In this document: positions 1 through 36,439 of the stretch, one piece after another
Layout: the number at the start of each line of letters is the position of its first letter
How positions within the stretch are numbered: position 1 is the first letter of the stretch
Virus record (IMG/VR): IMGVR_UViG_3300025082_000003
Source of the DNA: a virus
Length of the DNA stretch: 36,439 bases
Reading direction: 5' to 3' (one strand)
The notes under the pieces: model-generated
Told to the model about the DNA's origin: nothing
Databases searched by the model: none
The model's input: the letters and a program-made list of their open reading frames with translations, nothing else
Made by a program: the position numbers and the translations under genes

Positions 1-20
1 AATAACAAACTTTGAGAATT

Positions 21-155
21 ATGGCCGAACAAATTAAACACGCAGAAACTAAAGTAGAATTTTTTAAAGATGCCTTTGCTGAAACGGGTGATAAGTATTA
101 TTACGAACAGGCTAACAACTGGATTAACCACATAGCTGATTTGAAGAATAACTAA
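21..155 (+). CDS. 44-aa small protein carried inside the 186-bp repeat (MAEQIKHAETKVEFFKDAFAETGDKYYYEQANNWINHIADLKNN)
   Basis: ATG..TAA ORF below the 60-aa track cutoff. An identical copy lies at 29578..29712(-). A hairpin follows it. No family recognised. Confidence 0.4.
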   Translation: MAEQIKHAETKVEFFKDAFAETGDKYYYEQANNWINHIADLKNN

Positions 156-161
156 TTCTCA

Positions 162-186
162 AAGCACCGAAGGTGAGTAGGTGCTT
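162..186 (+). terminator. Stem-loop closing the repeat unit (AAGCACC - 11 nt - GGTGCTT)
   Basis: 7-bp stem 162-168/180-186 starts 7 nt after the 44-aa ORF stop and has an A/T-rich tail. An alternative inner CACC/GGTG pairing is possible. Confidence 0.4.
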
Positions 187-207
187 AATTTAAACAGAGG
201 AATGATT

Positions 208-417
208 ATGAAACACTTTGAAAATTACGAAAGAATAATAGCACACTCTGAAAGGTCTGCTGGAAATGAATCAGTTGGTGAAATGTGGGTGGAAACTAAA
301 TCATTTGATAAAAGTATTCCCGTTTCAGAAATAATTGAGTGGGGAAAAAGAACGAGTGGCAAATTACATTTAACGATTGATGAAGGAACGGTAAAAGATG
401 AGCCGTTATCATTTTAA
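208..417 (+). CDS. Hypothetical protein (track ORF 181..417; ATG at 202 or 208 is the likelier start)
   Basis: Open frame in the co-oriented gene block, with AGAGGA just upstream of the ATGs. Confidence 0.6.
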   Translation: MKHFENYERIIAHSERSAGNESVGEMWVETKSFDKSIPVSEIIEWGKRTSGKLHLTIDEGTVKDEPLSF

Positions 418-3564: not shown

Positions 3565-3610
3565 TGTTGTATGGCGAGGTACGAGCGTACCGTTTTAATG
3601 GCATACAACA
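3565..3610 (+). terminator. Nested hairpin with a terminator-like inner stem
   Basis: Outer stem TGTTGTATG 3565-3573 pairs with CATACAACA 3602-3610. Inner stem GGTAC-GAGC-GTACC at 3578-3591 is followed by GTTTTA. Confidence 0.5.
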
Positions 3611-3658
3611 TAGTATATGCTCAATACGCATATTCCTAAATATTCAGAATAAGATGAA
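3607..3658 (+). repeat. 52-nt element, copy 1 (51/52 identical to the reverse complement of 26133..26184)
   Basis: Direct comparison finds a single mismatch, at 3636. It lies 108 nt upstream of the XhlA-like gene in sense orientation and contains the ATATGC-7 nt-GCATAT palindrome. Confidence 0.9.
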
Positions 3659-3765
3659 CAAACTAGGCTACACAACATTAATAATTGTACCTATGCTAAA
3701 AAAACATTAAATTCAAGTGGTATTTCTAAATAAATAATTTAACAAACCACTCATATCTTTATCTT

Positions 3766-4053
3766 ATGTCAGAAGGACAAACTTACACAGAGCACATAAA
3801 GCGGTTCGAAAGCACGTTGGATAAATTTGAAGGGGTTTTAGAAAGACAGGCAAAAGACCTGAGCGATATAAAACAAGCTTTACTTGGCTCAAAGTTTGGA
3901 GAGAACGGTATCGTTAAGCGTTTAGAGATAGCAGAGAACGAGGTAAGGGACTTGAAAGGATTTAAAGACCGTATTGTATGGATTACAATAGGAGTAGGAT
4001 CGGGAAGCGGTGCTGGAGTGTTTGCAATTTTAAAACTAATATTTAATATTTGA
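3766..4053 (+). CDS. XhlA-like lysis-associated membrane protein (coiled coil plus C-terminal TM)
   Basis: Architecture only: an N-terminal heptad-like region and a C-terminal IVWITIGVGSGSGAGVFAILKLIF segment, as in the Bacillus PBSX XhlA family. Confidence 0.45.
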   Translation: MSEGQTYTEHIKRFESTLDKFEGVLERQAKDLSDIKQALLGSKFGENGIVKRLEIAENEVRDLKGFKDRIVWITIGVGSGSGAGVFAILKLIFNI

Positions 4054-4055
4054 TT

Positions 4056-4361
4056 ATGGGAAAGCCTTTAAGAGAAACAGCGTTATTCAGAACGATAACA
4101 GGAAAGAACAAAACAGGGAAGTTTATACACTCGGTTATTGACGTGTCTCCTTTACCTAACTTTCACGAAGTATTCAAAGCAAGGCTAAAGGACAACCCTA
4201 ATCTAAGCCTTCCAGAGCTTGCCAAAGAGAGCTTCAAGAGCATAGACTGGTTTAGAACGATTGCAGGTGTTGCGGTTGTTATAGCGTACCTTAAGGGATG
4301 GGTTAGTGCTGAACAGTTAGGCGATATTAAAGACTTTATACTCCAACTATTGCCACAGTAA
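4056..4361 (+). CDS. Membrane protein, holin candidate (track start TTG 4050)
   Basis: One clear TM segment (TIAGVAVVIAYL), placed directly after the XhlA-like gene. The holin role is inference. Confidence 0.5.
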   Translation: MGKPLRETALFRTITGKNKTGKFIHSVIDVSPLPNFHEVFKARLKDNPNLSLPELAKESFKSIDWFRTIAGVAVVIAYLKGWVSAEQLGDIKDFILQLLPQ

Positions 4362-17447: not shown

Positions 17448-20400
17448 TGGCAGAAAGATTTTACGCTGACCATACAACCACAGAAACAGGCGAAGATATC
17501 CGTGTTGAGATTCACGATAGTGATTTTGTGGGTTCGGCTTCCAAGCTGAAAGGAACGGGTGCAGGATGGGCTTCACGATCCGTACAACAACTAGACCCGA
17601 GAAACCCGTTATCAAGTCCTGTTCAAAAATCTGAAGTATCAGTTTCATTGTGGGTTGAAAGCTCCTCATTAATTGATGATTTATTTTCAAGCGAAGAAGG
17701 CAGATTTACACTTATCTATGATAAAGATTCAACGGAATACTTTGAAGGAACTATACTTCCTGATTTATGTGATTATGATTACTTAGAAGATAGTGCTTTA
17801 TGGAAGCTAACTATAAAAGCTAAAGATTTATCCATATTAGAGGGTGAATATTATACCGATGATGGAACTATTTCAGGAGCGCTTGAAACAGGAAGAGTTA
17901 CGGTTATTGAGGCAATAGCCGATATACTGCCGTATTCTAAGACAATAAAAACGCATACATCGTGGATAGTTGATGGAACAACTACATCAAACGATTATTT
18001 AAGGCAAGTTTATATAGATAAATACGCACTTAGAACTTATGCACGAACGGGAGACGAGTCAGACGAGCCTATAACTAAGCTGACAGCTTTAGAATGGATT
18101 CTTAAATCTAATGGACTGATACTAAAACAAGAAAACGGATGGGTTTTAGATCATATAACAGCCATGTCAAACCCTGCATCGGTATTAGAGTCAAATTACG
18201 ACACTTCAGGTACGTTTAGTTCTGCATCGAATGTTGATTTAACAAATACAGCAACGATAGTTATAGGTAGTCCATACAATCATAACCCGGGTATTAAATC
18301 GGCTCGATTAAAATACGACCACAGAACAAAGATAAGCGGTATTGTTTATCCGAGTGTTATTGAGTTAGTTGATGCAGGAACAGATTCTTTTTCACAGTTA
18401 TTTATAAGTGACGGAAGCCAAACATTATCGCTTTCATTTACAGTGAATGCTGAGACTGATGAAACTGAGGCGTCAATGGATGCTAGGGTTCGTATTACAT
18501 CGGGAAGCTATTATTTACAGGACGACTTATCGTGGGATACAACGGTTAATAGTTATGTAGAGTTTTCACTAACAAAAGGAAAACCCTTGTCAGGTGGTGG
18601 TAATGTTTGGAGAGGCAGTTTTTCCATAACAACCGATGACATACCCGATGCAGCGGACGGAACTTTAACCGTTCAATTTGCAGGTGCTACGGGTGGTATA
18701 GATTTTGCGGACACTACGGAATATTACGATATTGGATTTTCAATAAATAACTCGGTAGCTCAAGAAAAATCAACATACATAGATTATCAACTGACCCAAA
18801 CGGGAACACAATCAGTTAGGGCTGGGTATGGAAGCGTTTACTTTGGTGATGGTCCTGTTGGGTATTCAAGAGGCGCAATAACCACCGATTCAGGTGGTAC
18901 GGCTTTCACGGCTGATGATTGGGCGAGAAGAGGTGAGGTTTCCTTTGTTAACCATGCTGAAATATTATTAAGAGAGCTGTTAGATGTTCAGAGAAAATCA
19001 AGAAACCGTATAAGTGCAACCGTAAAATCGGGTTTATCCTTTGGTGATATTATTTCTTATGATAGCACTAATTACTATGTGTTAGGTGGGTCTCAGGATG
19101 GCTATACAGGAGTCTCAAAAGTTGAATTACTAGAAGTTGATATACAAACAGGTACAGATACATTTGAAGATTTACCCAAGTTTGAAGAAGAGGCTGTTTC
19201 AGGTAGTGCAAGCACTTCAGGAGGAACAGGGCTAGATGTTACAACGGCTGATGCTAGGTATTTAAAACAAACTAGTAATTTATCTGATATAGATGATGCG
19301 TCTACGGGGAGAACTAATTTAGGTGTAGCAATAGGCTCAGATGTTCAAGGACATAGTGATGCTTTAGATGATATTTCTTTATTAGATGATTCTGACGGTA
19401 ATTTCATAGTAGGTAGCGCTACGGGATGGGTCGCAGAATCAGGAGCTACGGCAAGGGCTAGCTTAGGAGCTAACGATGCAAGTAATTTAACGACGGGCAC
19501 ACTACCAAGCGGAAGAGTGTCAGGTTCTTACACGGGAATTACAGGGGTTGGTGCTTTAAATGCAGGTTCTATTTCTTCTGGATTTGGAGCGATTGACATA
19601 GGCTCGAGCACGTTAACGGCAGGGGCGGCACAAATAATAGGCGATGCCTCTTTAGCTCAGATATTGGTTACCACAAACGCAAATAGTGGAGAGTCTCGAT
19701 TAAGATTAAGACCTGATAACGGTTTACAGGGTGGGTTAGATCTTATAGCCGATGAAACAAATAAAGAAGCTATAATACAAACAAATAACTCTGCTCTTTG
19801 GGATTTAATCTTCAAGATAAGGGGGAGTGATGGAACCAATGAGCGATTTAGGATAGCTAAAGACGTAATAACATCAACAGTAAACTTAAATATAGGAAGT
19901 AATGCATTAACGGCAGGGGCGGCACAAATAATAGGCGATGCCTCTTTAGCTCAGATATTGGTTACCACAAACGCAAATAGTGGAGAGTCTCGATTAAGAT
20001 TAAGACCTGATAACGGTTTACAGGGTGGGTTAGATCTTATAGCCGATGAAACAAATAAAGAAGCTATAATACAAACAAATAACTCTGCTCTTTGGGATTT
20101 AATCTTCAAGATAAGGGGGAGTGATGGAACCAATGAGCGATTTAGGATAGCTAAAGACGTAATAACATCAACAGTAAACTTAAATATAGGAAGTAATGCA
20201 TTAACGGCAGGAACGGGTACATTTGGTGGTACAGTATCCGTAGATAGGGCGGTTGTTATAAGAGATGCCGGAGATACACAGGCATCCTCATTGTCATTAT
20301 ACGAAAGTGGGTCTATTGACGTTTTATTAAGAAGCGACACGGGGACTTCTTATTTGTGTGCAACGGGTGGAGAGTTAGCGGTTGGTGGCGCTTCTCAGCT

Positions 20401-25968: not shown

Positions 25969-26132
25969 TTTTAGTTAATGGATAAGCACCCCTAACAGCT
26001 GGACTTTCACCGTGTTTTTCGGGGTTGCTGGTTTGAGTGCGGTACTATCAACCCTTTTTCCCTTCCATTGTTTCATTTTTATTGAATTTTCATCGTTAGT
26101 TCAGATTTTTTGATACTAATTAAATAGTATTA

Positions 26133-26184
26133 TTCATCTTATTCTGAATATTTAAGAATATGCGTATTGAGCATATACTATGTT
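26133..26184 (-). repeat. 52-nt element, copy 2
   Basis: Its reverse complement matches 3607..3658 at 51/52 positions. It lies 165 nt upstream of the endolysin ATG in sense orientation. Confidence 0.9.
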
Positions 26185-26650
26185 ATGTGCAAGCTATAAC
26201 GTCTTTTAAATATTGTCCTGTGCTTAATTCAATCTTTTTACAACCAATCTGATTTTGCAATTGTGTTATCCATTCAGTCCAGTTATCACTTACCAGTTTA
26301 ATAAAACTTTCATTGCTTCCTCGTTGTTTATACCTTTCTATAAACTCTTGTTTCAAGTCAATATTTGGGTAAACAAGAGTAAAGTGAAAACCTTCTTTAA
26401 CAAGTGCATCCCTTACAACTTCGTGGCTACTTATAAGTATAATATCTACTTTACCCAAATTTGCCTTAATATGGTCTATGTAATTTTTAGGAAAAAAAGC
26501 TTTATCAAACTTACTACTATCACTATCTAAAACTTTTAGCTTAGAATGGTTGTAAAGGTAACTTTTGCCAACTGCTGGAAAGCCTGCACATAACAACGTG
26601 GATAATTCATTGATATTTTCTGCATTTTTGGAATCTAATTGTTTACTCAT
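26183..26650 (-). CDS. P-loop NTPase / nucleotide-kinase-like protein
   Basis: Walker A motif GFPAVGKS close to the N-terminus, with size and layout of small kinases. Confidence 0.6.
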   Translation of the reverse strand: MSKQLDSKNAENINELSTLLCAGFPAVGKSYLYNHSKLKVLDSDSSKFDKAFFPKNYIDHIKANLGKVDIILISSHEVVRDALVKEGFHFTLVYPNIDLKQEFIERYKQRGSNESFIKLVSDNWTEWITQLQNQIGCKKIELSTGQYLKDVIACT

Positions 26651-28956: not shown

Positions 28957-29546
28957 CCATTGCAGAATCGGCTTCCAGAAACAACATAATTAACTGGTTT
29001 ATGTTTTACTGGATTATCCAGTTTAAAATAAGGCTCACTAACTGCTTCAGGGCTTAGTGAGTGGTGTGTTTCGTTACGTCTTTCAAAACCCGATACGCCT
29101 GAAGATCACCGCTTCCTTAAAATGTTGAGTGAGGACAGGATTCGATACCTGTAAGATGGTTTGTTGCTTCGATGCTTTAATCCATTTAGGAGTGTCCACA
29201 TGGGTCTTATCCATCTACCCGTTATAGCGTTTACTTATCGCATTGCCCGTAGTCTGGATTATTCGGTTAATAACCTATTTTTATGCGCTTTCGCCACCTC
29301 ACTCAGTTTCAAGGAACCCGAACTAAACACCGCTTTCATGTCTCTTTTGCTTCTAGGAAAGCAGGGCGTCCTAGAACATTCGGGTTCCAATTTCATTAAA
29401 TTCAAAGAACTGTTTAAAACCCGATTATGCTCTCACACACAATCGGATAATCTCATTTGCTTATTTTACTGATAAAATCGTCTTTCAGCGTTTCGTTTAT
29501 TTCGTTTACTATCTCGGAGGTTTTCATATCAATTCCTTTTAATTAA
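28957..29546 (-). ncRNA. Candidate large structured RNA / structured leader (class unknown)
   Basis: About 590 nt with no credible ORF in a tightly packed operon. Counted 60-nt lines are about 43-48% GC against about 27% in the flanking genes. There are many perfect helices: 29313-22/29379-88 (10 bp), 29351-58/29369-76 (8), 29034-41/29054-61 (8), 29126-34/29297-305 (9), 28983-89/28999-29005 (7), 29155-60/29211-16 (6) and 29421-26/29441-46 (6). Strand is assumed from context. Confidence 0.4.
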
Positions 29547-29571
29547 AAGCACCTACTCACCTTCGGTGCTT
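29547..29571 (-). terminator. Stem-loop of the inverted repeat copy, followed on the minus strand by TTAATTAAAA
   Basis: The same hairpin as 162..186. Confidence 0.4.
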
Positions 29572-29577
29572 TGAGAA

Positions 29578-29712
29578 TTAGTTATTCTTCAAATCAGCTA
29601 TGTGGTTAATCCAGTTGTTAGCCTGTTCGTAATAATACTTATCACCCGTTTCAGCAAAGGCATCTTTAAAAAATTCTACTTTAGTTTCTGCGTGTTTAAT
29701 TTGTTCGGCCAT
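29578..29712 (-). CDS. Second identical copy of the 44-aa small protein
   Basis: Identical nucleotide sequence to 21..155. Confidence 0.4.
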   Translation of the reverse strand: MAEQIKHAETKVEFFKDAFAETGDKYYYEQANNWINHIADLKNN

Positions 29713-29793
29713 AATTCTCAAAGTTTGTTATTAATTGCTTACACAAAGATAGTAAACTCTAAATTTAAAGTCAACTTTAGTTAACAATTATTT

Positions 29794-30084
29794 TCAATTA
29801 ATCATTTGCATAGTTCCGTACCCGTGTTTTAGTACGTGAGATTGATACCACCTGTCGTTAATTAGCTCATTATGTTTTTTCACGCTCTTATAAACTGTTA
29901 CTCTCGTTCTGTTTAGAAATTCAGATATTTTTTTAATCGGAATACTTTGAGATTTACAAAGCGCTATAAACCCATGTCGGTACATACAAAGCTCCTGCAA
30001 CTGGTTAGGGGATGTAAGGTCGCTTACTATTATCCCGTGTTGCTTACAATAGAATTTTGCTAGGTTTTGGATGGATGGTTTCAT
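29794..30084 (-). CDS. DnaA domain IV-like HTH protein
   Basis: LCMYRHGFIALCKSQSIPIKKISEFLNRTRVTVYKSVKKHNELI resembles the DnaA C-terminal DNA-binding domain. Confidence 0.45.
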   Translation of the reverse strand: MKPSIQNLAKFYCKQHGIIVSDLTSPNQLQELCMYRHGFIALCKSQSIPIKKISEFLNRTRVTVYKSVKKHNELINDRWYQSHVLKHGYGTMQMIN

Positions 30085-30335
30085 TTTATATCTTTTTTTG
30101 ATATAAGTTCAATTTCTTTATTTAATCTTTTGTTTTTATCGAAACCCCTTGATTCCTTTCTAAGCCTTTCCAATCTTTCAATGAGAACTTCTTTAGGCTC
30201 TTCAACTAATTCAATAGTAACCTTATATTTTCGATATTCTAAAAAATTTATATTGCATGGTTCTTCTTTTTTTAATTGATTAATCGTGTATGTATTTTCT
30301 AAATCTTTAAATGTTTCAAATTCAATTTTTTTCAT
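30081..30335 (-). CDS. Hypothetical coiled-coil protein
   Basis: 84-aa K/E-rich ORF. Confidence 0.55.
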   Translation of the reverse strand: MKKIEFETFKDLENTYTINQLKKEEPCNINFLEYRKYKVTIELVEEPKEVLIERLERLRKESRGFDKNKRLNKEIELISKKDIK

Positions 30336-30339
30336 AATC

Positions 30340-30717
30340 CTATCCTGTTATTTTTTTATTTGGTTGTGATGTTAAATGCCAAGCATCACATTTTTTACAA
30401 AAGTATCTTCTCGATTCCTTTCTTGATGAATTAAAACTAAGCAAGCACCTACTAAGCCATTTCCTTGACTCTTCATCAGTAAATGACCTTTTACCACACC
30501 CTAAAGGCTCACTAATGTTCATGTATTCAGCCGTAAACTCTTTAAAGTCCTTCATGTTTTCATTTATGTATTTAATTATTACTGGCATTTTTGGGGTTTG
30601 CTCAGGTCTTACCTTTTTGCCATAAAAATCAGTAGCTACGTTTGATCTGTGAATGTTGTATTTATCCTTTAGGTACTTCATTACATCATCGTAATTTTTA
30701 GTCTCTGAATATTTCAT
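30340..30717 (-). CDS. Hypothetical protein with C-terminal CxxC..WH motif
   Basis: 125-aa ORF ending in YFCKKCDAWHLTS. Confidence 0.55.
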   Translation of the reverse strand: MKYSETKNYDDVMKYLKDKYNIHRSNVATDFYGKKVRPEQTPKMPVIIKYINENMKDFKEFTAEYMNISEPLGCGKRSFTDEESRKWLSRCLLSFNSSRKESRRYFCKKCDAWHLTSQPNKKITG

Positions 30718-31475
30718 CCCGTTATTTTATTTAGTAATTGTTTTTGCCTTTTATCGGCTTCGTCTTGCCTGTGATCGTAATCTGGGAACTCAATCAAAAC
30801 TCCCATTTCCTCAACACGGCTTGCCACTCTAGGGTGGTAGGGTAAATCTTTAATATCTACATTAGAAGTAAATATTGTCGGTTTGCCTGATTGATACCTA
30901 GTGTCTATAATTTCCAAAACTTTATCGTGTCGCCAATCTGTTTTTTTAGCTTCGAATCCTATTTCATCCAATATCAACAAAGGAACACTTTTAATTACGT
31001 TCAATATTCTAAGAGAGCTTATATCTGAATTGCTAAACGATTCCTGAAACAAAGTAAATAAATCATTCATTGTATAAATTTGACTAGCTACCTTGTTACG
31101 GTTGTAAAGTTCGTTCGCTATTATACAAGCTAGTAAAGTCTTTCCACATCCGACAGAGTCCGAATAGAAGTACATTCCAATACCTTCTTTAGATAACCCT
31201 TCCCATTTGGTCAGATATGCCTCTGCTATTTTTTTAATCTTCGTATATCCTCTTTCTTTATCTGTGGTGAAGTCAACTAATAGTTTACCTTCGTACTTAT
31301 TCGCTTGCTCAGAGCCGTACGCATAGCACAAAGGCTTTAAACTATCCGCTTGGATGTCTTGCATCGAAAAAGTAATAGGGTCGCCTATACTCGATTTTTT
31401 AGTCGATTTGATCGAGTATGCTAATTCGCTCTCTTCCATTATTTCGCTTAGTTTTTGGGGTTGCCTTGTTTTCAT
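30714..31475 (-). CDS. DnaC/IstB-like AAA+ helicase loader (start uncertain: 31475, 31439 or 31364)
   Basis: Walker A motif SVGCGKT and Walker B motif LLILDEIGF. Confidence 0.8.
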   Translation of the reverse strand: MKTRQPQKLSEIMEESELAYSIKSTKKSSIGDPITFSMQDIQADSLKPLCYAYGSEQANKYEGKLLVDFTTDKERGYTKIKKIAEAYLTKWEGLSKEGIGMYFYSDSVGCGKTLLACIIANELYNRNKVASQIYTMNDLFTLFQESFSNSDISSLRILNVIKSVPLLILDEIGFEAKKTDWRHDKVLEIIDTRYQSGKPTIFTSNVDIKDLPYHPRVASRVEEMGVLIEFPDYDHRQDEADKRQKQLLNKITG

Positions 31476-32094
31476 CTTTAAACCACACTGATTGCATTTT
31501 TAATTTCCAGTTCTTAATTACGTTATCCCGTGAATCTCTCCAATACTTTCTTTTAGGATTATCTTCTACCGATGCGTTATACATATTGTAAGCTCTTTCA
31601 GCTACATCTAAACTATAACCGTTTTTATTGAAGTAATCTTTAACCTCTTCCAAAGTGGGAATGAAAGAAACTTTAGTTTCGCTATATTCTTCTTTATTAT
31701 TCTTACTTGTAGTATTAATACTTGTACTATTATCTTTTAGGTTTTCTGACCACCCCTCTTTAGATTTATTGACCACCCCCTTTCGATTTTCTGAATACCC
31801 CCTTTCGATTTTCTGAATAGGGTAAATGTTTCTTTGCTTCACTTCTTTTCCTTCATTTATGTACTCAACTATAACATGGTTATTCTCTTTTAAAGATTTA
31901 ACCCAAAGGCTTACAGTAGATGTGCTTACCCCGTACAATTCAGCGAAATAAGAGTTTGAAGCATAACAGTAACCGTGTTTATTACTTAATGCTGTTATCT
32001 CTCCGTAGAATAGCTTTTGAGAGCCTGAAAGGGAATTATCGTACCTAACACTAGATGGTATTATAGCATAATAGTTTGGTTTGTCTTTACTCAT
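31399..32094 (-). CDS. Replisome organiser / replication initiator (N-terminal winged HTH)
   Basis: YYAIIPSSVRYD..LSGSQKLFYGEITALSNKHGYCYASNSYFAELYGVSTSTVSLWVKSLKE. It contains iterons and lies upstream of the loader gene. Confidence 0.7.
   Translation of the reverse strand: MSKDKPNYYAIIPSSVRYDNSLSGSQKLFYGEITALSNKHGYCYASNSYFAELYGVSTSTVSLWVKSLKENNHVIVEYINEGKEVKQRNIYPIQKIERGYSENRKGVVNKSKEGWSENLKDNSTSINTTSKNNKEEYSETKVSFIPTLEEVKDYFNKNGYSLDVAERAYNMYNASVEDNPKRKYWRDSRDNVIKNWKLKMQSVWFKDENKATPKTKRNNGRERISILDQID
31741..31819. repeat. Iteron array (candidate origin) inside the initiator gene
   Basis: Two perfect 22-mers, CCCCCTTTCGATTTTCTGAATA, at 31776-31797 and 31798-31819. A degenerate 23-mer precedes them at 31753-31775, with a partial unit at 31741-31752. 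An AT-rich tract lies next to the array. Confidence 0.7.
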
Positions 32095-32149
32095 TTTGCT
32101 TGTAGTTTAAAATTAAAAAGCCCCTGAAAGAACCTACCGCTAATATTCT

Positions 32150-32229
32150 TTGGCGTGGCAGATGGAAACGTTCTGCTGAATACGATAGGCTCTCGCAAGA
32201 GCTTTACTTTCCGTGTTATCCGACGCCAA
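32150..32229 (-). ncRNA. 80-nt multi-helix element between ssb and the initiator gene (function unknown)
   Basis: Closing stem 32150-56/32223-29 (7 bp). Arms are 32158-62/32172-76 (5 bp), 32184-87/32217-20 (4 bp) and 32188-93/32198-203 (6 bp; tetraloop UGCG on the minus strand). Confidence 0.35.
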
Positions 32230-32308
32230 TCAGATTCAGTAATTACACTAAATATACCTATATGGTTGGTTTAATGCAATGGTTAAAAGTGTAAGGTTTA
32301 AAATATTC

Positions 32309-32337
32309 TGTCACAAATTTAGTGGATATTTGTGACA
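32309..32337 (-). terminator. Hairpin immediately after ssb (TGTCACAAAT-9 nt-ATTTGTGACA)
   Basis: Perfect 10-bp stem starting 2 nt after the ssb stop. Confidence 0.55.
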
Positions 32338-32339
32338 AG

Positions 32340-32771
32340 CTAGAAGGGAAGATCTTGACCATCATCAAAGTCTTTCCCTAATTCTACGGGTGAACTTTGC
32401 GAGTTGTTTTGCGGGTTCTTTGGAGCGCCACCTTGATAATTATCGCTTTTACTATCTAACATAGTCATTTGCAAAGCCTTTATCTCAGTTGAATATCGCT
32501 TCTCTCCGTCTTTCTCCCATGAACGGGTTTCGATTTTGCCTTCTACATAGACAAGTGATCCTTTTTTTAGGTAGTCTCTGCATACCTCAGCCAATCTACC
32601 CCAAGCTACGATGTTATGCCATTGAGTGTTTTCTACTTGCTCTCCGTTCTTATCTTTATACTTCTCGCTAGTTGCTATTGAGAAATTTGTAACGGTTGAA
32701 TTTCCTACTTGTTTTGATTCAGGGTCTTTTCCAATCCGACCTATTAATTGTGCTTTATTTAGTGAACTCAT
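32340..32771 (-). CDS. ssb: Single-stranded DNA-binding protein
   Basis: N-terminus MSSLNKAQLIGRIGKDPE, an OB-fold pattern (W..IVAWGRLAE, YVEGKIETRSWE) and the acidic tail DDGQDLPF. Confidence 0.9.
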   Translation of the reverse strand: MSSLNKAQLIGRIGKDPESKQVGNSTVTNFSIATSEKYKDKNGEQVENTQWHNIVAWGRLAEVCRDYLKKGSLVYVEGKIETRSWEKDGEKRYSTEIKALQMTMLDSKSDNYQGGAPKNPQNNSQSSPVELGKDFDDGQDLPF

Positions 32772-33012
32772 GTGTGTTTATTTTTATTTTTGGATAAATT
32801 GTAATTGTTGATTTAATATCTTTGTGCTTGCCTTCTGAATATACCTTCCCTTCATCTATGCAATATACCGTTGATACGGTTTTTAAGTCGCTAATTTGAT
32901 GCGTTGCTTTTACGTGGTTGTGAATGGGTTCTTGTACTAAGAATATTAAAGATGCCATAAACCCCACGCCTAGTATAATACTAAATAAAAGCACTAATAA
33001 ACTCTTCATCAC
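32755..33012 (-). CDS. Membrane-anchored small protein
   Basis: N-terminal TM segment LLVLLFSIILGVGFMASLIFLV. Confidence 0.5.
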   Translation of the reverse strand: MMKSLLVLLFSIILGVGFMASLIFLVQEPIHNHVKATHQISDLKTVSTVYCIDEGKVYSEGKHKDIKSTITIYPKIKINTHEFTK

Positions 33013-33169
33013 TCACCTCATCTGTATAAATTAAATGTTCGCAATCTCCGTTTTCATCGGGAGAAAATTCATCATAAGATTGCCTTTCTAAATCAGGTGG
33101 TGCGCAAAATCTCCAGCACATATCAGATAAATGGCAATCTTTATTAGTACACATTGTTATATCAGCCAT
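32981..33169 (-). CDS. Small Cys-rich protein
   Basis: CTNKDCHLSDMCWRFC motif. Confidence 0.55.
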   Translation of the reverse strand: MADITMCTNKDCHLSDMCWRFCAPPDLERQSYDEFSPDENGDCEHLIYTDEVSDEEFISAFI

Positions 33170-33390
33170 TATTTCACCTCTTTATAACTTCGTTTAGCTT
33201 TTACATCGTTTATAGCCCACTTACTAACTCCGTAAATCTTAGATAGCTCCTTAGTGCTTAAATTTGAAGCCCGTATTTCTCTTACATCTTCGTGAGTTAG
33301 TTTGTTAGGCTTAGTTTCTTCTTGAACAAAATTATATGGTAGCATGTCGCCTGACCATTCTTTATAGTTCGTTGCTCCGTTTCCTTTCAT
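33169..33390 (-). CDS. HTH protein, tandem paralog B (track start 33429; ATG 33390 gives ATGA coupling)
   Basis: LTHEDVREIRASNLSTKELSKIYGVSKWAINDVKAKRSYKEVK. Confidence 0.55.
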   Translation of the reverse strand: MKGNGATNYKEWSGDMLPYNFVQEETKPNKLTHEDVREIRASNLSTKELSKIYGVSKWAINDVKAKRSYKEVK

Positions 33391-33590
33391 TTCACTCCTT
33401 TGTATGTGTTGTAGTTTTTGACGTTGCAAATAACGCTTTCGCTTCGTTCGTAAATCTTTGCTAACTCTTTGCTAGGCTTATCTGATTTTCTAATTTCCCG
33501 AACTTCATCCCGGGTTAAAGCCCTTTTCTTAGTTGATTTCTTCTTACCAAAACCGTAAGGCATTGGATAGGTTTGATTAGTAAAACTCAT
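33387..33590 (-). CDS. HTH protein, tandem paralog A
   Basis: LTRDEVREIRKSDKPSKELAKIYERSESVICNVKNYNTYKGVK, the same pattern as the downstream gene. Confidence 0.55.
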   Translation of the reverse strand: MSFTNQTYPMPYGFGKKKSTKKRALTRDEVREIRKSDKPSKELAKIYERSESVICNVKNYNTYKGVK

Positions 33591-33769
33591 TTACTACACC
33601 TCATTAAAAATTTATGTTTAAGTACAAAATTCCATCCTTTATTAAACGCATTAGCCTGAGCGTTCCATCTTCCGAACCTGTTAAAGGTTCTCTCACAATT
33701 GCCTTTAGTCTCAATACAGGCTGTTAAGCCCTCGTTGTATGCCTCGTTTCTTCTTTTGGAGCTAATCAT
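33587..33769 (-). CDS. Hypothetical protein
   Basis: 60-aa ORF with ATGA coupling. Confidence 0.45.
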   Translation of the reverse strand: MISSKRRNEAYNEGLTACIETKGNCERTFNRFGRWNAQANAFNKGWNFVLKHKFLMRCSK

Positions 33770-34022
33770 TTTGAAATGTAATCTGATTTTCAGAAGAAGT
33801 AATAGATCCGCTTAATCCGTATTCCATAAACGGAAGATATTGAGAATTTTCACTTATACCATTCTTAGCTTTTTTTAGATACTTCCTTTCCATATCTTTT
33901 GGATTATCAAAATATTTACCCATCTCTTTAAACATTTGTGTTCGTGAAGTGAATACTATCTTTTGACAGCCTACACTTACAATCCATCCGTTTAATACAC
34001 CTTCAATTTTTATGTCTTTCAT
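33762..34022 (-). CDS. Hypothetical protein
   Basis: 86-aa ORF. Confidence 0.55.
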   Translation of the reverse strand: MKDIKIEGVLNGWIVSVGCQKIVFTSRTQMFKEMGKYFDNPKDMERKYLKKAKNGISENSQYLPFMEYGLSGSITSSENQITFQND

Positions 34023-34072
34023 TTTGTTTCCTGTATTTTGGCAATAAACCTAATCTATTGCCGATTTAAAGT

Positions 34073-34480
34073 TTATAAATACCTTTTATGACTTGATATA
34101 TGATCGTCAATCTGTCTTTTGTTTTGCCTGTATTCATCAGGAGTTGGAATATAACACCCTTGCATCCCTGAATAGTCTCTTATCCAATCTATGAAGTCGG
34201 TAAGCTCTTTAGAGTCCATCCCTCTAGTTCTCTTTAGAAACTTATCTCCGTTCTTTTCATAAACCATAAACGAGCAATTCCTTTTTAGAAGTGTTTTAGC
34301 TTCATCTAAAGTATAACCAAATTCAATGGCAAAGATTGATATGCAAACATGAAGGTAAGAGTTTTGTGTTAGCGTTCTTTTTTCCCTTATCTCTGTTAGT
34401 TCAACCTTTTTATCTTTTAGGGTTTTAAGCCTAGCCTTGAATTTGTTTGCATCGTATGGTTTAGAAAGATCGTAAATCAT
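34073..34480 (-). CDS. NinB/Orf-like recombination mediator
   Basis: KRTLTQNSYLH resembles the NinB RSLDQNRKLW motif. It lies adjacent to the annealase gene. Confidence 0.5.
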   Translation of the reverse strand: MIYDLSKPYDANKFKARLKTLKDKKVELTEIREKRTLTQNSYLHVCISIFAIEFGYTLDEAKTLLKRNCSFMVYEKNGDKFLKRTRGMDSKELTDFIDWIRDYSGMQGCYIPTPDEYRQNKRQIDDHISSHKRYL

Positions 34481-34483
34481 AGG

Positions 34484-35044
34484 TTATTTAATATGTCCAG
34501 CTTCTTTTGATATGTTAACAAAGTATTCCATGTTCAATTTATTAACAGCATATTTATCCCTAAGCTTGTATGGATTGCCACCATTTCGAACCCATTCTTC
34601 TGCTTTATCCCATTCCTCCATGCCCTCATTGAGCCACTCTTTATCATCTGATTTTTTCGATGGTTTACTATCTTTTGGTTTACTTGATCCTTTAGAAGCT
34701 AAATTTGCATCATCATCTTCTGCCTCAATTCCTAAAAGAGATTGGAGGGAATATCTTCTGTAATAAGTTATTGCAGAACCAATCTTTTGCGGATCGTTAA
34801 TTTCAGGTAGGGGTATAAAAGATTCGACAGTTTCACCCGATCCAAAATCCATTATAATGGTTCCAACCTCTCCGTTTTTTATAGGCTGTAAAAGCAACAA
34901 GTCATGTCTTATAAATTCAGGTCTTAATGTTTCAATCAGTTGGTTTACATCAAAATACCTAGACTTATAAAAAGGGTTTTCGCTATCCTTTTTCATCTTA
35001 TCCATTGTTGATGTTATTTCAAATAGTTTTTTATAGATGCTCAT
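34484..35044 (-). CDS. ERF-family single-strand annealing protein
   Basis: GSAITYYRRYSLQSLLGIEAEDDD is the characteristic ERF core, followed by a C-terminal acidic/basic tail. Confidence 0.75.
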   Translation of the reverse strand: MSIYKKLFEITSTMDKMKKDSENPFYKSRYFDVNQLIETLRPEFIRHDLLLLQPIKNGEVGTIIMDFGSGETVESFIPLPEINDPQKIGSAITYYRRYSLQSLLGIEAEDDDANLASKGSSKPKDSKPSKKSDDKEWLNEGMEEWDKAEEWVRNGGNPYKLRDKYAVNKLNMEYFVNISKEAGHIK

Positions 35045-35484
35045 TTCTTCACCATTTTTAAAGATGTTGTGTAACTTGATTCAGCAGGCGGTATAACCTC
35101 ACCATGAACTACAAGCTGTTTATTTTGCTCATTCATTTGTAAGGCTTTTTTCATCAGGTTTTCACGCTCTTTTTTAGAAGTCTCGATCCCTTGCCATTCT
35201 TCATCATGCTTGTAGGAATAGTTTGAACGCCCTGTTAATTGAACATCAAACCCATGATAAACCAACTCTTCTTTTTCTCCATACTTTTGCCGTTCATCAA
35301 TAGCAATATCTTTTATTCTATTTAATACTTGGCTTAGCAATTTGCTTTGACTGTATAACAAAGCATACGCTTCCATTGGATTCATTAACCCTTCATCAAC
35401 CCTTTCTTCGATTGATAAAAAGTCCTGATGTGCTATCTCTTGCAACCCTACTTCCTGTCCGTAGTTTCCTTGTACTTCACTCAT
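35041..35484 (-). CDS. Gp157-like protein (siphovirus Gp157 family, tentative)
   Basis: Size, coiled-coil character and position directly upstream of ERF, as in Sfi21-type modules. Confidence 0.4.
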   Translation of the reverse strand: MSEVQGNYGQEVGLQEIAHQDFLSIEERVDEGLMNPMEAYALLYSQSKLLSQVLNRIKDIAIDERQKYGEKEELVYHGFDVQLTGRSNYSYKHDEEWQGIETSKKERENLMKKALQMNEQNKQLVVHGEVIPPAESSYTTSLKMVKK

Positions 35485-35633
35485 TTATTTTCTCCTATTT
35501 TACCGTAAGGCGCTTCTGTTACTGAAACCACCTTAGCTTGATTGTCGTATTTGTCGTTAATTTCTTTAGCTATCTGATTAGCTTCTTCTTCGTTGTTGAC
35601 ATACATATCTATTGTTACAGCGTATCTTTTCAT
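35481..35633 (-). CDS. Small hypothetical protein, 50 aa (not in track)
   Basis: ATGA overlaps at both ends. Sequence MKRYAVTIDMYVNNEEEANQIAKEINDKYDNQAKVVSVTEAPYGKIGENK. Confidence 0.45.
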   Translation of the reverse strand: MKRYAVTIDMYVNNEEEANQIAKEINDKYDNQAKVVSVTEAPYGKIGENK

Positions 35634-35914
35634 AGTTCCTTTTGTATTTGTTCTTCAATAACTTCAAATAGTAATTCGTTAGTCTCAACATCAGGAGCGT
35701 ATTCTAAAGCCCATTCAGATTGAGTTACTTCCGTTATGTAGTCGTATTTGTCAATAGCTCCTTTTCCAATTAGGAATACAGCATCTTCAAAATCGAGTTC
35801 TTTTTCCATTGCTCCGAATCCAGTTTCAAATCGAGGCGAACCTGATAACGCACTATCGCAATGTCTTTGCTCGTACACTCCGTTATAGTTCATGTTTACT
35901 AGAGGTAAGTTCAT
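35630..35914 (-). CDS. Hypothetical protein
   Basis: 94-aa ORF. Confidence 0.55.
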   Translation of the reverse strand: MNLPLVNMNYNGVYEQRHCDSALSGSPRFETGFGAMEKELDFEDAVFLIGKGAIDKYDYITEVTQSEWALEYAPDVETNELLFEVIEEQIQKEL

Positions 35915-36120
35915 TTCTTTTCCACCAATTCAATATTAAGATTAAGTAAATCCATCAACTTTTTTATGTCCTCAGACTTTAAACATCTATTAGAAGATGA
36001 AAAGTTATATAAGGACTGTTTTGGTATCCCTGCATTTTCAGCAATTTGATACATTTTCAAACCCGTTCTTGATTTATACTCGTGTAACTTTCCGTTTAGT
36101 TTGTGGTCAAATTCATTCAT
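35911..36120 (-). CDS. XRE-family HTH regulator (Cro/CI-like); first gene of the early operon
   Basis: LKMYQIAENAGIPKQSLYNF is an HTH segment. The gene faces a divergent intergenic region. Confidence 0.7.
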   Translation of the reverse strand: MNEFDHKLNGKLHEYKSRTGLKMYQIAENAGIPKQSLYNFSSSNRCLKSEDIKKLMDLLNLNIELVEKK

Positions 36121-36253
36121 TTATTATTGGTCTATTTAAAATTGCTTTTCACATTATACGGATATTTATTAACCTAAACAAGAACTATTTTCTTTATTTT
36201 GTGAAAAAAGATTTGCATATATCAAAAAAGGGTTGTAGATTCTCTCAAGCAAC
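36121..36253. promoter_or_regulatory. Divergent control region between the early minus-strand operon and the plus-strand arm
   Basis: 133-bp AT-rich gap between divergent genes. I could not identify explicit -35/-10 or Bacteroidota-type motifs. Confidence 0.35.
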
Positions 36254-36439
36254 AATAACAAACTTTGAGAATTATGGCCGAACAAATTAAACACGCAGAA
36301 ACTAAAGTAGAATTTTTTAAAGATGCCTTTGCTGAAACGGGTGATAAGTATTATTACGAACAGGCTAACAACTGGATTAACCACATAGCTGATTTGAAGA
36401 ATAACTAATTCTCAAAGCACCGAAGGTGAGTAGGTGCTT
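36254..36439. repeat. 186-bp repeat, copy at window end (duplicate representation of 1..186, including the 44-aa ORF at 36274..36408 and the hairpin at 36415..36439)
   Basis: 186/186 identical to the window start. Confidence 0.95.

What the first reader, a model, noticed from the sequence alone, without database searches (positions are those of the whole stretch)
29547..29732. Perfect 186-bp inverted repeat (small gene plus hairpin) brackets the 6.5-kb early module and heads both outward transcription arms
The unit at the window ends recurs as an exact reverse complement at 29547-29732. On the circle the two copies flank 29733-36253, which holds the regulator, ERF, NinB, SSB, initiator and DnaC genes. 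Each copy points away from that module. One leads into the plus-strand arm (208 onward). The other leads into the minus-strand arm (structured region, LexA-like, RusA, endolysin). Each unit is a self-contained 44-aa ORF followed 7 nt later by a 7-bp hairpin. I see two non-exclusive readings.
- A duplicated cis-regulatory cassette, analogous in logic to lambda nutL/nutR or HK022 put, or to the short terminated pR' transcript. The same leader plus terminator would gate both delayed transcription units.
- A substrate for homologous inversion by the phage's own ERF/NinB/RusA system, giving two genome isomers. Either isomer keeps a cassette at the head of each arm, so inversion would be tolerated.

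100% identity over 186 bp in an AT-rich phage argues for gene conversion or strong selection.
Basis: partly seen in the sequence, partly recalled or inferred. Interest (0 to 1): 0.75.

Follow-up and report, generated by a model that had tools for sequence, protein, structure and literature searches.

The report
Mirrored small-gene cassette flanking phage replication module
A 36-kb uncultured phage carries two identical, oppositely oriented copies of a complete small-gene unit on either side of its replication module, and a second, shorter mirrored element has inverted most of the genome in one natural sample.

Summary
R (1-186, the same as 36254-36439, which is only the circular-closure overlap) and R' (29547-29732) are 186/186 reverse complements. 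The repeat is real: at least ten independent assemblies from three assemblers break at it or run through it, and contigs anchored in each of the four unique flanks give each copy's sequence separately.

R is a complete mini transcription unit: predicted transcription start, a 44-aa gene, then a hairpin. The gene encodes a confidently predicted alpha-helical hairpin protein from a tiny phage family. In distant relatives it is single-copy, and it is always preceded by a Bacteroidota-type promoter, as are both copies here.

The copies flank the 6.5-kb early module, which contains the iteron origin. No recombinase gene was found.

A second mirrored pair, E/E' (3601-3661 / 26130-26190), marks the border to the late genes on each arm. 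One sample carries a clean E/E' recombinant whose contig length indicates inversion of the 22.5-kb late segment.

Inversion across R/R' was not seen: four R-spanning contigs, covering both junction types, all show the window orientation.

The cassette does head both arms and inversion is plausible. The nut/put-like mechanism and actual R flipping are unproven.

The parts
1..186 (+). R: cassette copy at the Breg/Astart junction. The same bases appear as 36254-36439, which is the circular-closure overlap.
   Evidence: It lies inside the sibling contig.
29547..29732 (-). R': exact reverse-complement copy at the BdnaA/Aend junction.
   Evidence: Flank-anchored unitigs.
21..155 (+). 44-aa gene (MAEQIKHAETKVEFFKDAFAETGDKYYYEQANNWINHIADLKNN). 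The second copy is 29578-29712 on the minus strand.
   Evidence: Homologues at 45-52% identity in alignment A2, with 10 invariant residues. AlphaFold two-helix hairpin, pLDDT 97. No Pfam, PHROG or PDB family.
162..186 (+). Hairpin AAGCACC-N11-GGTGCTT that ends exactly at the end of the repeat. The second copy is 29547-29571 on the minus strand.
   Evidence: -9.2 kcal/mol. Not called as a terminator.
10..164 (+). Internal 12-bp perfect inverted repeat CTTTGAGAATTA (10-21) / TAATTCTCAAAG (153-164) that brackets the start and stop codons. A near copy lies at 216-227.
   Evidence: Only 3 of 2000 shuffles reach 12 bp. Absent from distant homologues.
36213..36243 (+). Promoter-like site upstream of R: TTG-N20-TAGATTCT, then 3 nt, then AAGCAA.
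29744..29774 (-). Promoter-like site upstream of R': TTG-N20-TATCTTTG (perfect Bacteroidota -7 box), then 3 nt, then AAGCAA.
   Evidence: It is the only full match in the window that lies in an intergenic region in sense orientation.
187..213 (+). Imperfect continuation of the repeat into the translation start of the next ORF. Its counterpart is 29546-29522 on the minus strand.
29733..36253 (-). Bracketed early module B: HTH regulator, ERF, NinB, SSB, initiator, DnaC-like and DnaA_C-like genes, all on the minus strand.
31736..31820 (.). Four iterons of about 22 nt inside the initiator gene. This is the presumed origin, 2.0 kb from R' and 4.4 kb from R.
   Evidence: One iteron is deleted in another sample.
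3601..3661 (+). E: second mirrored element, at the border between the small genes and the packaging/structural genes. A terminator-like hairpin at 3578-3591 precedes it.
26130..26190 (-). E': mirrored partner of E (93% identical), just upstream of the endolysin gene. It is the crossover site of the natural recombinant contig.
29416..29527 (-). 24-codon ORF (29527->29453) and a terminator-like hairpin (29446->29416) directly downstream of R'.

Best explanation
R/R' is a real inverted duplication, specific to this lineage, of a complete promoter-proximal small-gene cassette. The cassette runs from the transcript start through a 44-aa helical-hairpin protein gene to a hairpin.

It is one of two mirrored cassette pairs that organise a two-armed circular phage genome:
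- R marks the start of the post-early unit on each arm.
- E marks the border to the late genes on each arm.

The duplication makes the same small protein the first product of both outward units and gives both units an identical 5' leader and 3' hairpin. The two copies have different promoters.

The 186/186 identity, set against unrelated promoter sequences and degenerate flanks, is best explained by recurrent recombination or gene conversion between the copies. The alternative is a very recent duplication.

The same kind of recombination can invert genome segments without separating any arm from its cassette. That outcome is inferred for E/E' and expected but not seen for R/R', where one orientation dominates.

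Shown: the repeat, its reality, its anatomy, that the protein family is real, the promoter geometry, and the E/E' recombinant. Inferred: promoter activity, coordinate control, gene conversion, and R/R' inversion.
For: Reality of the repeat:
-. SPAdes, MEGAHIT and Logan contigs stop k-1 nt into R from all four flanks (30, 123, 127 or 140-141 nt).
- Contig lengths fit a dumbbell-shaped assembly graph: 29392 = 186 + 29066 + 140, 29673 = 186 + 29360 + 127, and 6767 = 6521 + 2 x 123.

Cassette anatomy.

Real protein.

Promoter-proximal position:
- All five instances (two copies here plus three distant homologues) have TTG-N19-21-TAnnTT ending 24-36 nt before the ATG.
- The background rate is 4.7% of 110-nt windows.
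- R' has the only perfect intergenic, sense-oriented TTG-N20-TAnnTTTG in the window.
- A Bacteroidota host is supported by the rarity of Shine-Dalgarno sequences and by portal similarity to Cellulophaga and Flavobacterium phages.

Mirrored architecture: R/R' and E/E' are the only dispersed repeats, and both keep the same orientation relative to transcription on the two arms.

Recombination between mirrored cassettes occurs in nature:
- ENA ERZ27249216 contig k141_474811 joins window 29687->26125 to 3601->4062.
- The crossover lies inside the ~30-nt identical core of E.
- The contig length (29348) is what an inversion predicts, not a deletion.

The phage encodes ERF, NinB and RusA. No invertase or integrase was found.
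Against: - No transcript data exist. The promoters are consensus matches, and the R promoter has an imperfect -7 box.
- The hairpin is a poor intrinsic terminator and the RNA fold is not unusual (z = -0.97).
- All recovered genomes are essentially clonal, so concerted evolution cannot be separated from a recent duplication.
- Distant homologues are single-copy, and related phages are unidirectional without such repeats. Duplication is therefore not required for the gene to work.
- No R/R'-inverted contig was found.
- Only one junction of the E/E' recombinant was retrieved.
Confidence: 0.6

Rival explanations
1. Neutral by-product. R' arose as a recent inverted duplication during the rearrangement that produced the two-armed layout. 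It has not had time to diverge and does nothing beyond doubling the dose of the small gene.
For: - The population is clonal, so there is no time depth.
- Relatives have one copy.
- Related phages are unidirectional.
- The phage population shows rearrangement at another repeat.
Against: - The repeat boundaries coincide with the functional boundaries, from predicted +1 to the end of the hairpin.
- Both copies keep a promoter of the same geometry but unrelated sequence.
- The degenerate flanking similarity suggests an older event whose core has been homogenised.
- A second mirrored pair exists at the equivalent late border.
Confidence: 0.2
2. RNA-level control element in the manner of lambda nutL/nutR, HK022 put or the pR'-tR' 6S transcript. 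The shared leader and hairpin would load or modify RNA polymerase, or terminate it until an antiterminator acts, and so gate both arms.
For: - Position at the 5' end of both units.
- Identical leader and hairpin.
- Size (about 190 nt) similar to the lambda pR' transcript (from my own knowledge).
- The 12-bp 5'/3' bracket is non-random.
Against: - No Rfam match.
- The fold is not more stable than shuffles.
- Weak hairpin and weak U-tail.
- No Q/N-like or other antiterminator was detected.
- The sequence is constrained as a protein in distant homologues, two of which lack any downstream hairpin.
Confidence: 0.12
3. Programmed flip-flop of the origin-bearing 6.5-kb segment by homologous recombination. 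This would give coexisting isomers with a functional role, either swapping which promoter drives which arm or reversing one replication fork to make concatemers.
For: - 186 bp of perfect homology.
- ERF, NinB and RusA are encoded.
- The iteron origin lies asymmetrically between the copies.
- Both arm promoters lie inside the segment, so each isomer keeps a promoter plus cassette on each arm.
- The E/E' recombinant indicates that an inverted genome can dominate a sample.
- One SPAdes assembly left the junction unresolved (29673-nt contig).
Against: All four R-spanning contigs, from at least four samples and covering both junction types, show the same orientation. No flipped junction appears among the contigs that carry the intact small ORF.
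Confidence: 0.1
4. Assembly artefact: a collapsed or chimeric repeat, or a mis-closed contig.
For: The window's ends coincide exactly with the repeat, which is typical of a path through a repeat edge in the assembly graph.
Against: - The same topology appears in SPAdes, MEGAHIT and Logan assemblies of many samples.
- A sibling circular contig is cut elsewhere.
- Short contigs span Breg-R-Astart (L005) and BdnaA-R'-Aend (L007).
- Each copy was sequenced independently from its unique flanks.
Confidence: 0.02

Closest known systems
PeSL (promoter-early stem-loop) regulatory cassettes of T4-type phages RB49/phi1 (PMC2839356)
   Same: Repeated promoter plus stem-loop units sit next to small orphan genes. 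They act both as expression signals and as sites of homologous recombination that reshuffle the genome.
   Different: PeSLs are about 100 nt, roughly 50 per genome, mostly direct repeats, and exclude the ORF. Here there are two copies, inverted and perfect. The repeat is the transcribed ORF plus hairpin, while the promoters differ. The expected outcome is inversion, not mini-circle excision.
Lambda nutL/nutR and HK022 putL/putR (my own knowledge)
   Same: Near-identical cis elements lie in mirror orientation near the 5' ends of two divergent phage transcription units on either side of a control region.
   Different: Those are short non-coding RNA sites (boxA/boxB, or two stem-loops) that flank the immunity region. 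R is 186 bp, encodes a conserved protein, flanks the whole replication module, and R' lies 6.5 kb downstream of the early promoter. No antitermination factor was found.
Inverted-repeat genome isomerisation: plastid IR flip-flop, herpes simplex virus L/S inversion (four isomers), yeast 2-micron plasmid, Halobacterium phage PhiH L-segment between ISH1.8 copies (my own knowledge; plastid and HSV papers listed)
   Same: Inverted repeats flank unique segments of a replicon. Recombination gives isomers that all keep their genes intact. Two pairs of repeats would allow four isomers, as in HSV. As in the 2-micron plasmid, an origin lies asymmetrically between the repeats.
   Different: Those repeats are 0.6-25 kb, and the isomers are equimolar or driven by a dedicated recombinase (FLP). 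Here the repeats are 186 and about 60 bp, no recombinase is present, one R orientation dominates, and the E isomers differ between samples rather than being shown to coexist.
Site-specific invertible segments of phages (Mu G/Gin, P1 C/Cin) (my own knowledge)
   Same: A phage DNA segment is flanked by inverted repeats.
   Different: Those have 26-34-bp crossover sites, an adjacent serine invertase gene and a tail-fibre payload. None of this applies to R/R'.

Membership tests
Site-specific invertible segment (Gin/Cin/Hin type) | Adjacent serine invertase (resolvase-family) gene | tested here: not met
   No recombinase, resolvase or integrase family appears in the precomputed Pfam hits for all called genes or in the PHROG/Pfam scans of both arms.
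Site-specific invertible segment (Gin/Cin/Hin type) | Short (about 26-34 bp) imperfect crossover sites; payload is a host-range or tail-fibre gene | tested here: not met
   The repeat is 186 bp and perfect. The payload is the recombination/replication module.
nut/put-type antitermination sites | Conserved RNA motif (boxA/boxB, or the put double stem-loop) recognisable by a covariance model | tested here: inconclusive
   No Rfam match at gathering score or at E <= 10. I did not verify which nut/put models Rfam holds, and a novel motif would be missed.
nut/put-type antitermination sites | Read-through of downstream terminators depends on the element | not testable with these tools
   Needs Term-seq or reporter assays.
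PeSL-like mobile regulatory cassette | Repeated unit contains a consensus promoter and a stem-loop next to a small orphan gene | tested here: inconclusive
   A promoter-like site, an orphan gene and a stem-loop are all present. However, the promoter lies outside the identical repeat and there are only two copies.
PeSL-like mobile regulatory cassette | Recombination between cassettes rearranges the genome | tested here: inconclusive
   Shown for the other mirrored element E/E'. Not seen for R/R'.
Flip-flop inverted-repeat replicon (plastid / HSV / 2-micron type) | Two identical inverted repeats separating unique segments of a circular replicon | tested here: met
Flip-flop inverted-repeat replicon (plastid / HSV / 2-micron type) | Both orientations of the bracketed segment coexist | tested here: inconclusive
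   Only assembled contigs were available. Four R-spanning contigs, covering both junction types, all show one orientation. Minor isomers would be invisible without reads.
Small helical-hairpin phage protein family (unnamed; P0028-P0030) | Sequence homology with conserved Q-I-x2-A-E ... W-x2-H-x-A-D motif | tested here: met
   phmmer E = 1.5e-5 to 2.6e-5 against 1.8 billion representatives. Ten invariant columns.

The most novel reading that the evidence does not exclude
The phage genome is a four-isomer system, like herpes simplex virus but in a tailed phage. It would be built from two pairs of mirrored expression cassettes.

In this reading, recombination at R/R' during replication reverses the origin-bearing segment. 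The iteron origin lies 2.0 kb from R' and 4.4 kb from R. A crossover after the nearer copy has replicated would turn the two converging forks into forks that follow each other. This is the double rolling-circle mechanism proposed for the yeast 2-micron plasmid.

That would yield the concatemers a headful-packaging terminase needs, catalysed by the phage's own ERF, NinB and RusA instead of a dedicated recombinase.
Probability: 0.07. Interest if true: 0.85.

Novelty: new variant of a known kind. Interest (0 to 1): 0.5.

Why it matters
If the mirrored-cassette reading is right, it shows a simple design rule for a phage genome. Placing identical expression cassettes in mirror positions lets large inversions happen without breaking any transcription unit. 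That would explain how two-armed and one-armed phage genome layouts interconvert.

There is also a practical point. The window's 186-bp 'terminal repeat' is not a physical end. Assemblers split this genome into contigs of about 29.4 kb and 6.7 kb in most samples, so genome-completeness tools and module-orientation calls for such phages can be misleading.

The E/E' recombinant gives a concrete natural isomer to test. The R/R' pair around an iteron origin makes the idea of recombination-driven concatemer formation directly testable.

Tried and rejected
- **Near-identical DNA search.** Querying 29000-36439 against GenBank phages gave no match.
- **Pattern search for the small gene.** A degenerate back-translated pattern found nothing in IMG/VR or the JGI metagenome collection. 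Those collections evidently lack this phage.
- **Alignment-based locus search for the small protein.** Nothing was confirmed in viral or GTDB genome contigs. The 44-aa protein alone was too short for the search for related loci.
- **Relatives found by other proteins.** DnaC gave none in IMG/VR. Terminase relatives are only 32-64% identical. None has an inverted repeat of 40 nt or more in the DNA held, so they were no help for testing concerted evolution.
- **L007 as a divergent strain.** I rejected this. The contig starts with an Illumina adapter and its eight mismatches inside R include a stop codon in the ORF, so they are probably read errors. It is used only as junction evidence.
- **Rfam and tRNA scans.** Nothing found.
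- **Sigma-70 promoter and terminator scans.** Counts were at or below the shuffle expectation, so they were uninformative. I replaced them with a Bacteroidota-type motif scan.
- **Structure searches with the helical-hairpin model.** Only generic two-helix matches, E > 0.6. The PDB sequence search gave nothing.
- **5'/3' bracket as a family feature.** Rejected, because it is absent from the homologues.
- **Literature searches for phage inversions between regulatory repeats.** These returned only the PeSL paper as relevant.

Full report
**1. Observation**

Window 1-186 is identical to 36254-36439, and 29547-29732 is its exact reverse complement, 186/186. A self-comparison of the circle finds only three repeat families: a 294-bp tandem duplication inside the 1447-aa tail gene, this pair (R/R'), and a second inverted pair of about 60 nt (E/E').

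The direct copy at the window ends is a closure overlap. A sibling contig from JGI 3300037585 is 36380 nt, which is 36253 + 127. It is cut inside the tail-gene tandem repeat and runs uninterrupted through Breg-R-Astart and BdnaA-R'-Aend at 100% identity. The genome is therefore a 36253-bp circle with two copies.

The copies separate:
- segment A, 187-29546 (29360 nt);
- segment B, 29733-36253 (6521 nt).

**2. Is the repeat real?**

An inverted repeat longer than the assembler's k-mer gives a dumbbell-shaped assembly graph: an A loop, then R, then a B loop. The public assemblies behave exactly as that predicts.

- MEGAHIT contigs:
  - 29392 nt = 186 + 29066 + 140, i.e. A with one copy of the tandem repeat;
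  - 29348 nt = 141 + 29066 + 141.
- A SPAdes contig of 29673 nt = 186 + 29360 + 127.
- B-only contigs of 6684, 6767 and 6781 nt.
- Logan contigs that stop 29-30 nt into R from the three flanks sampled (Astart, Breg, BdnaA).

Two short contigs span the whole repeat with unique DNA on both sides. L005 covers Breg-R-Astart. L007 covers BdnaA-R'-Aend but is noisy and starts with an adapter.

A unitig is unique until it is k-1 nt inside a repeat, so these contigs read each copy independently. All are identical:

| Copy | Positions read | Anchoring flank |
|---|---|---|
| R | 1-123 | Breg |
| R | 36-186 | Astart |
| R' | 1-141 | BdnaA |
| R' | 46-186 | Aend |

The perfect identity is therefore not a collapse artefact.

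**3. Anatomy**

- **Gene.** R holds a 44-codon ORF at 21-155.
- **Hairpin.** It is followed by AAGCACC-N11-GGTGCTT at 162-186, whose last base is the last base of the repeat. Its free energy is -9.2 kcal/mol and the U-tails are weak (UUAAUUUA / UUUUAAUU).
- **Internal bracket.** A 12-bp perfect internal inverted repeat (10-21 / 153-164) brackets the start and stop codons. Only 3 of 2000 shuffles reach this length. A near copy lies at 216-227.
- **RNA fold.** The fold as a whole is unremarkable, z = -0.97.
- **Flanks.** Beyond the perfect core, similarity decays into AAGCAA on the B side. On the A side it decays into about 27 nt ending at the ATGAAA of the next ORF.

**4. The ORF is a gene**

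- A word-indexed search of 5.8 billion proteins found only the protein itself and P0002. P0002 is an 88%-identical 51-aa sequence whose look-up returned the noisy contig L007.
- An exhaustive phmmer search of 1.8 billion representatives found three more small proteins of 48-55 aa (E about 2e-5). They are 45-52% identical to the query in alignment A2, which has ten invariant residues.
- AlphaFold gives a two-helix hairpin at pLDDT 97.
- No Pfam, PHROG, PDB or fold match says what it does.
- In the homologues' contigs the gene is single-copy. Logan k=31 contigs run through it, and no inverted repeat involving the gene is present.
- Its gene neighbourhood differs between those contigs.

**5. Promoters**

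Shine-Dalgarno sequences are rare in this phage. The portal's nearest cultured relatives are Cellulophaga and Flavobacterium phages. I therefore scanned for the Bacteroidota promoter form, TTG, about 20 nt, then TAnnTTTG. That consensus is from my own knowledge.

- The only full match in the window that is intergenic and in sense orientation is at 29774->29744, directly upstream of R'.
- R has TTG-N20-TAGATTCT at 36213-36243 with the same spacing to AAGCAA.
- All three distant homologues carry the same motif ending 24-36 nt before their ATG.
- The background rate is 4.7% of 110-nt windows.

The small gene is therefore consistently the first gene behind a promoter. The identical repeat begins close to the predicted transcript start, while the two promoters share geometry but not sequence. 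R is a whole mini transcription unit.

**6. Context**

B encodes an HTH regulator, ERF, NinB, SSB, an initiator, a DnaC-like loader and a DnaA_C-like protein, all on the minus strand. Four iterons of about 22 nt at 31736-31820 inside the initiator gene mark the likely origin. It lies 2.0 kb from R' and 4.4 kb from R.

R' is followed, in order, by:
- a 24-codon ORF;
- a terminator-like hairpin;
- a structured ORF-free stretch of about 480 nt (z = -2.8);
- a LexA-like winged helix gene, RusA, a YbcO/HNH-like gene and phrog_4182;
- E', and then the endolysin.

R is followed, in order, by:
- about 14 small genes;
- a terminator-like hairpin at 3578-3591, and then E;
- the terminase, portal, head and tail genes.

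The two arms are thus mirror images in their signals: R at the start of the post-early genes and E at the start of the late genes.

No invertase, integrase or antiterminator was detected.

**7. Recombination between mirrored cassettes**

MEGAHIT contig k141_474811 (ENA ERZ27249216, 29348 nt) follows the minus arm from R' to 26125 without a single difference outside E. It then continues into 3601-4062 of the plus arm. The switch lies inside the ~30-nt identical core of E.

- The core is far shorter than k = 141, so reads must carry this junction.
- The contig length equals that of the parental A unitig, which fits an inversion of the 22.5-kb late segment and not a deletion.
- Five other assemblies have the parental arrangement.
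- I cannot tell homologous recombination from site-specific recombination here. The core is a dyad, ATATGC-N7-GCATAT.

In the recombinant layout, early genes, middle genes and structural genes all run in one direction. That matches phage 11b and the two closest DnaC relatives.

**8. R/R' inversion**

Both promoters lie inside B. A flip would therefore keep a promoter plus cassette on each arm but would swap which promoter, and which read-through from the early operon, feeds which arm.

All four R-spanning contigs show the window orientation, and together they cover both junction types. No contig carrying the intact small ORF shows a flipped junction. One orientation therefore dominates. Minor isomers cannot be excluded without reads.

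**9. Interpretation**

The best reading is a real duplication, specific to this lineage, of a promoter-proximal small-gene cassette. It is one of two mirrored cassette pairs.

- The 186/186 identity next to unrelated promoters and degenerate flanks points to homogenisation by recombination. A very recent duplication cannot be excluded, because all recovered genomes are clonal.
- The nut/put-like RNA reading has positional support only.
- The programmed flip-flop reading is plausible in mechanism but unobserved.
- An assembly artefact is essentially excluded.

**10. Comparison with known systems**

- **T4-type PeSL cassettes** are the closest functional analogue. They are promoter plus stem-loop repeats that also serve as recombination sites (PMC2839356). 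They differ in number, orientation and content.
- **Lambda nutL/nutR** share the mirror logic but not the substance.
- **Plastid, HSV and 2-micron inverted repeats** share the topology, but they involve far longer repeats, and coexisting isomers or a dedicated recombinase.
- **Gin/Cin-type segments** fail on every defining feature tested.

**11. Verdict**

The feature is real and unusual for a small tailed phage, and its function is unproven. It is a new variant of known kinds. Interest is moderate (0.5). The score is raised by the natural E/E' isomer and by the origin-between-repeats geometry, and lowered by the lack of any evidence for R flipping or for a regulatory effect.

Noticed in passing
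window 3601-3661 (+) and 26130-26190 (-); locus L049 3458-3620: A second mirrored element E/E' (about 58 nt, 93% identical, dyad core ATATGC-N7-GCATAT) lies at the border to the late genes on both arms. MEGAHIT contig k141_474811 (ERZ27249216) is a clean recombinant across it, and its length fits inversion of the 22.5-kb late segment. A third partial copy of its 3' part lies at 853-884.
   Followed up: partly
window 28957-29415, minus strand: A GC-richer stretch of about 460-480 nt with no ORF over 50 aa lies between R' (plus its 24-codon ORF and terminator-like hairpin) and the 75-aa gene. The RNA fold has z = -2.8 and 0 of 100 shuffles are as stable. Rfam gives no match. It is a candidate new phage non-coding RNA.
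   Followed up: partly
window 19613-20200: A perfect 294-bp tandem duplication lies inside the 1447-aa tail gene. The lengths of two MEGAHIT contigs fit a single copy, so this is either copy-number variation or assembler collapse. The sibling SPAdes contig is cut here.
   Followed up: partly
window 31775-31796; locus L031: In sample ERZ27249216 the B contig lacks 22 nt, exactly one iteron of the array inside the initiator gene. This splits the initiator ORF into 111-aa and 125-aa calls. The same sample carries the E/E' recombinant.
   Followed up: no
whole window; loci L001-L006, L019-L035, L047-L052: Contigs from many samples are about 99.4-100% identical to the window. The samples include JGI 3300006736, 3300006922, 3300010153, 3300037585 and 3300037631, several ENA ERZ2724xxxx assemblies, and four SRA runs. 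The phage is either clonal and widely sampled or the datasets share a source. Most assemblies split it into an A contig of about 29.4-29.7 kb and a B contig of about 6.7 kb.
   Followed up: partly
window 10-21, 153-164, 216-227 (and the same positions in R'): The 12-bp motif CTTTGAGAATTA brackets the small ORF as a perfect inverted repeat and recurs with one mismatch just inside the next gene. It is non-random and absent from distant homologues. It could be an operator or an RNA panhandle. Unexplained.
   Followed up: partly
locus L007 1-62: The 521-nt ENA contig k141_103960 begins with an Illumina adapter/index sequence, and its eight mismatches to R (including a stop codon in the small ORF) sit inside the repeat. 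The '51-aa, 88% identical' protein P0002 is therefore probably a sequencing-error product.
   Followed up: yes
locus L041 5726-5757 and 11963-11994: The phage contig that carries the distant homologue P0028 has its own perfect 32-nt inverted pair, each arm a terminator-like palindrome, 6.2 kb apart. It is unrelated in sequence to R.
   Followed up: no
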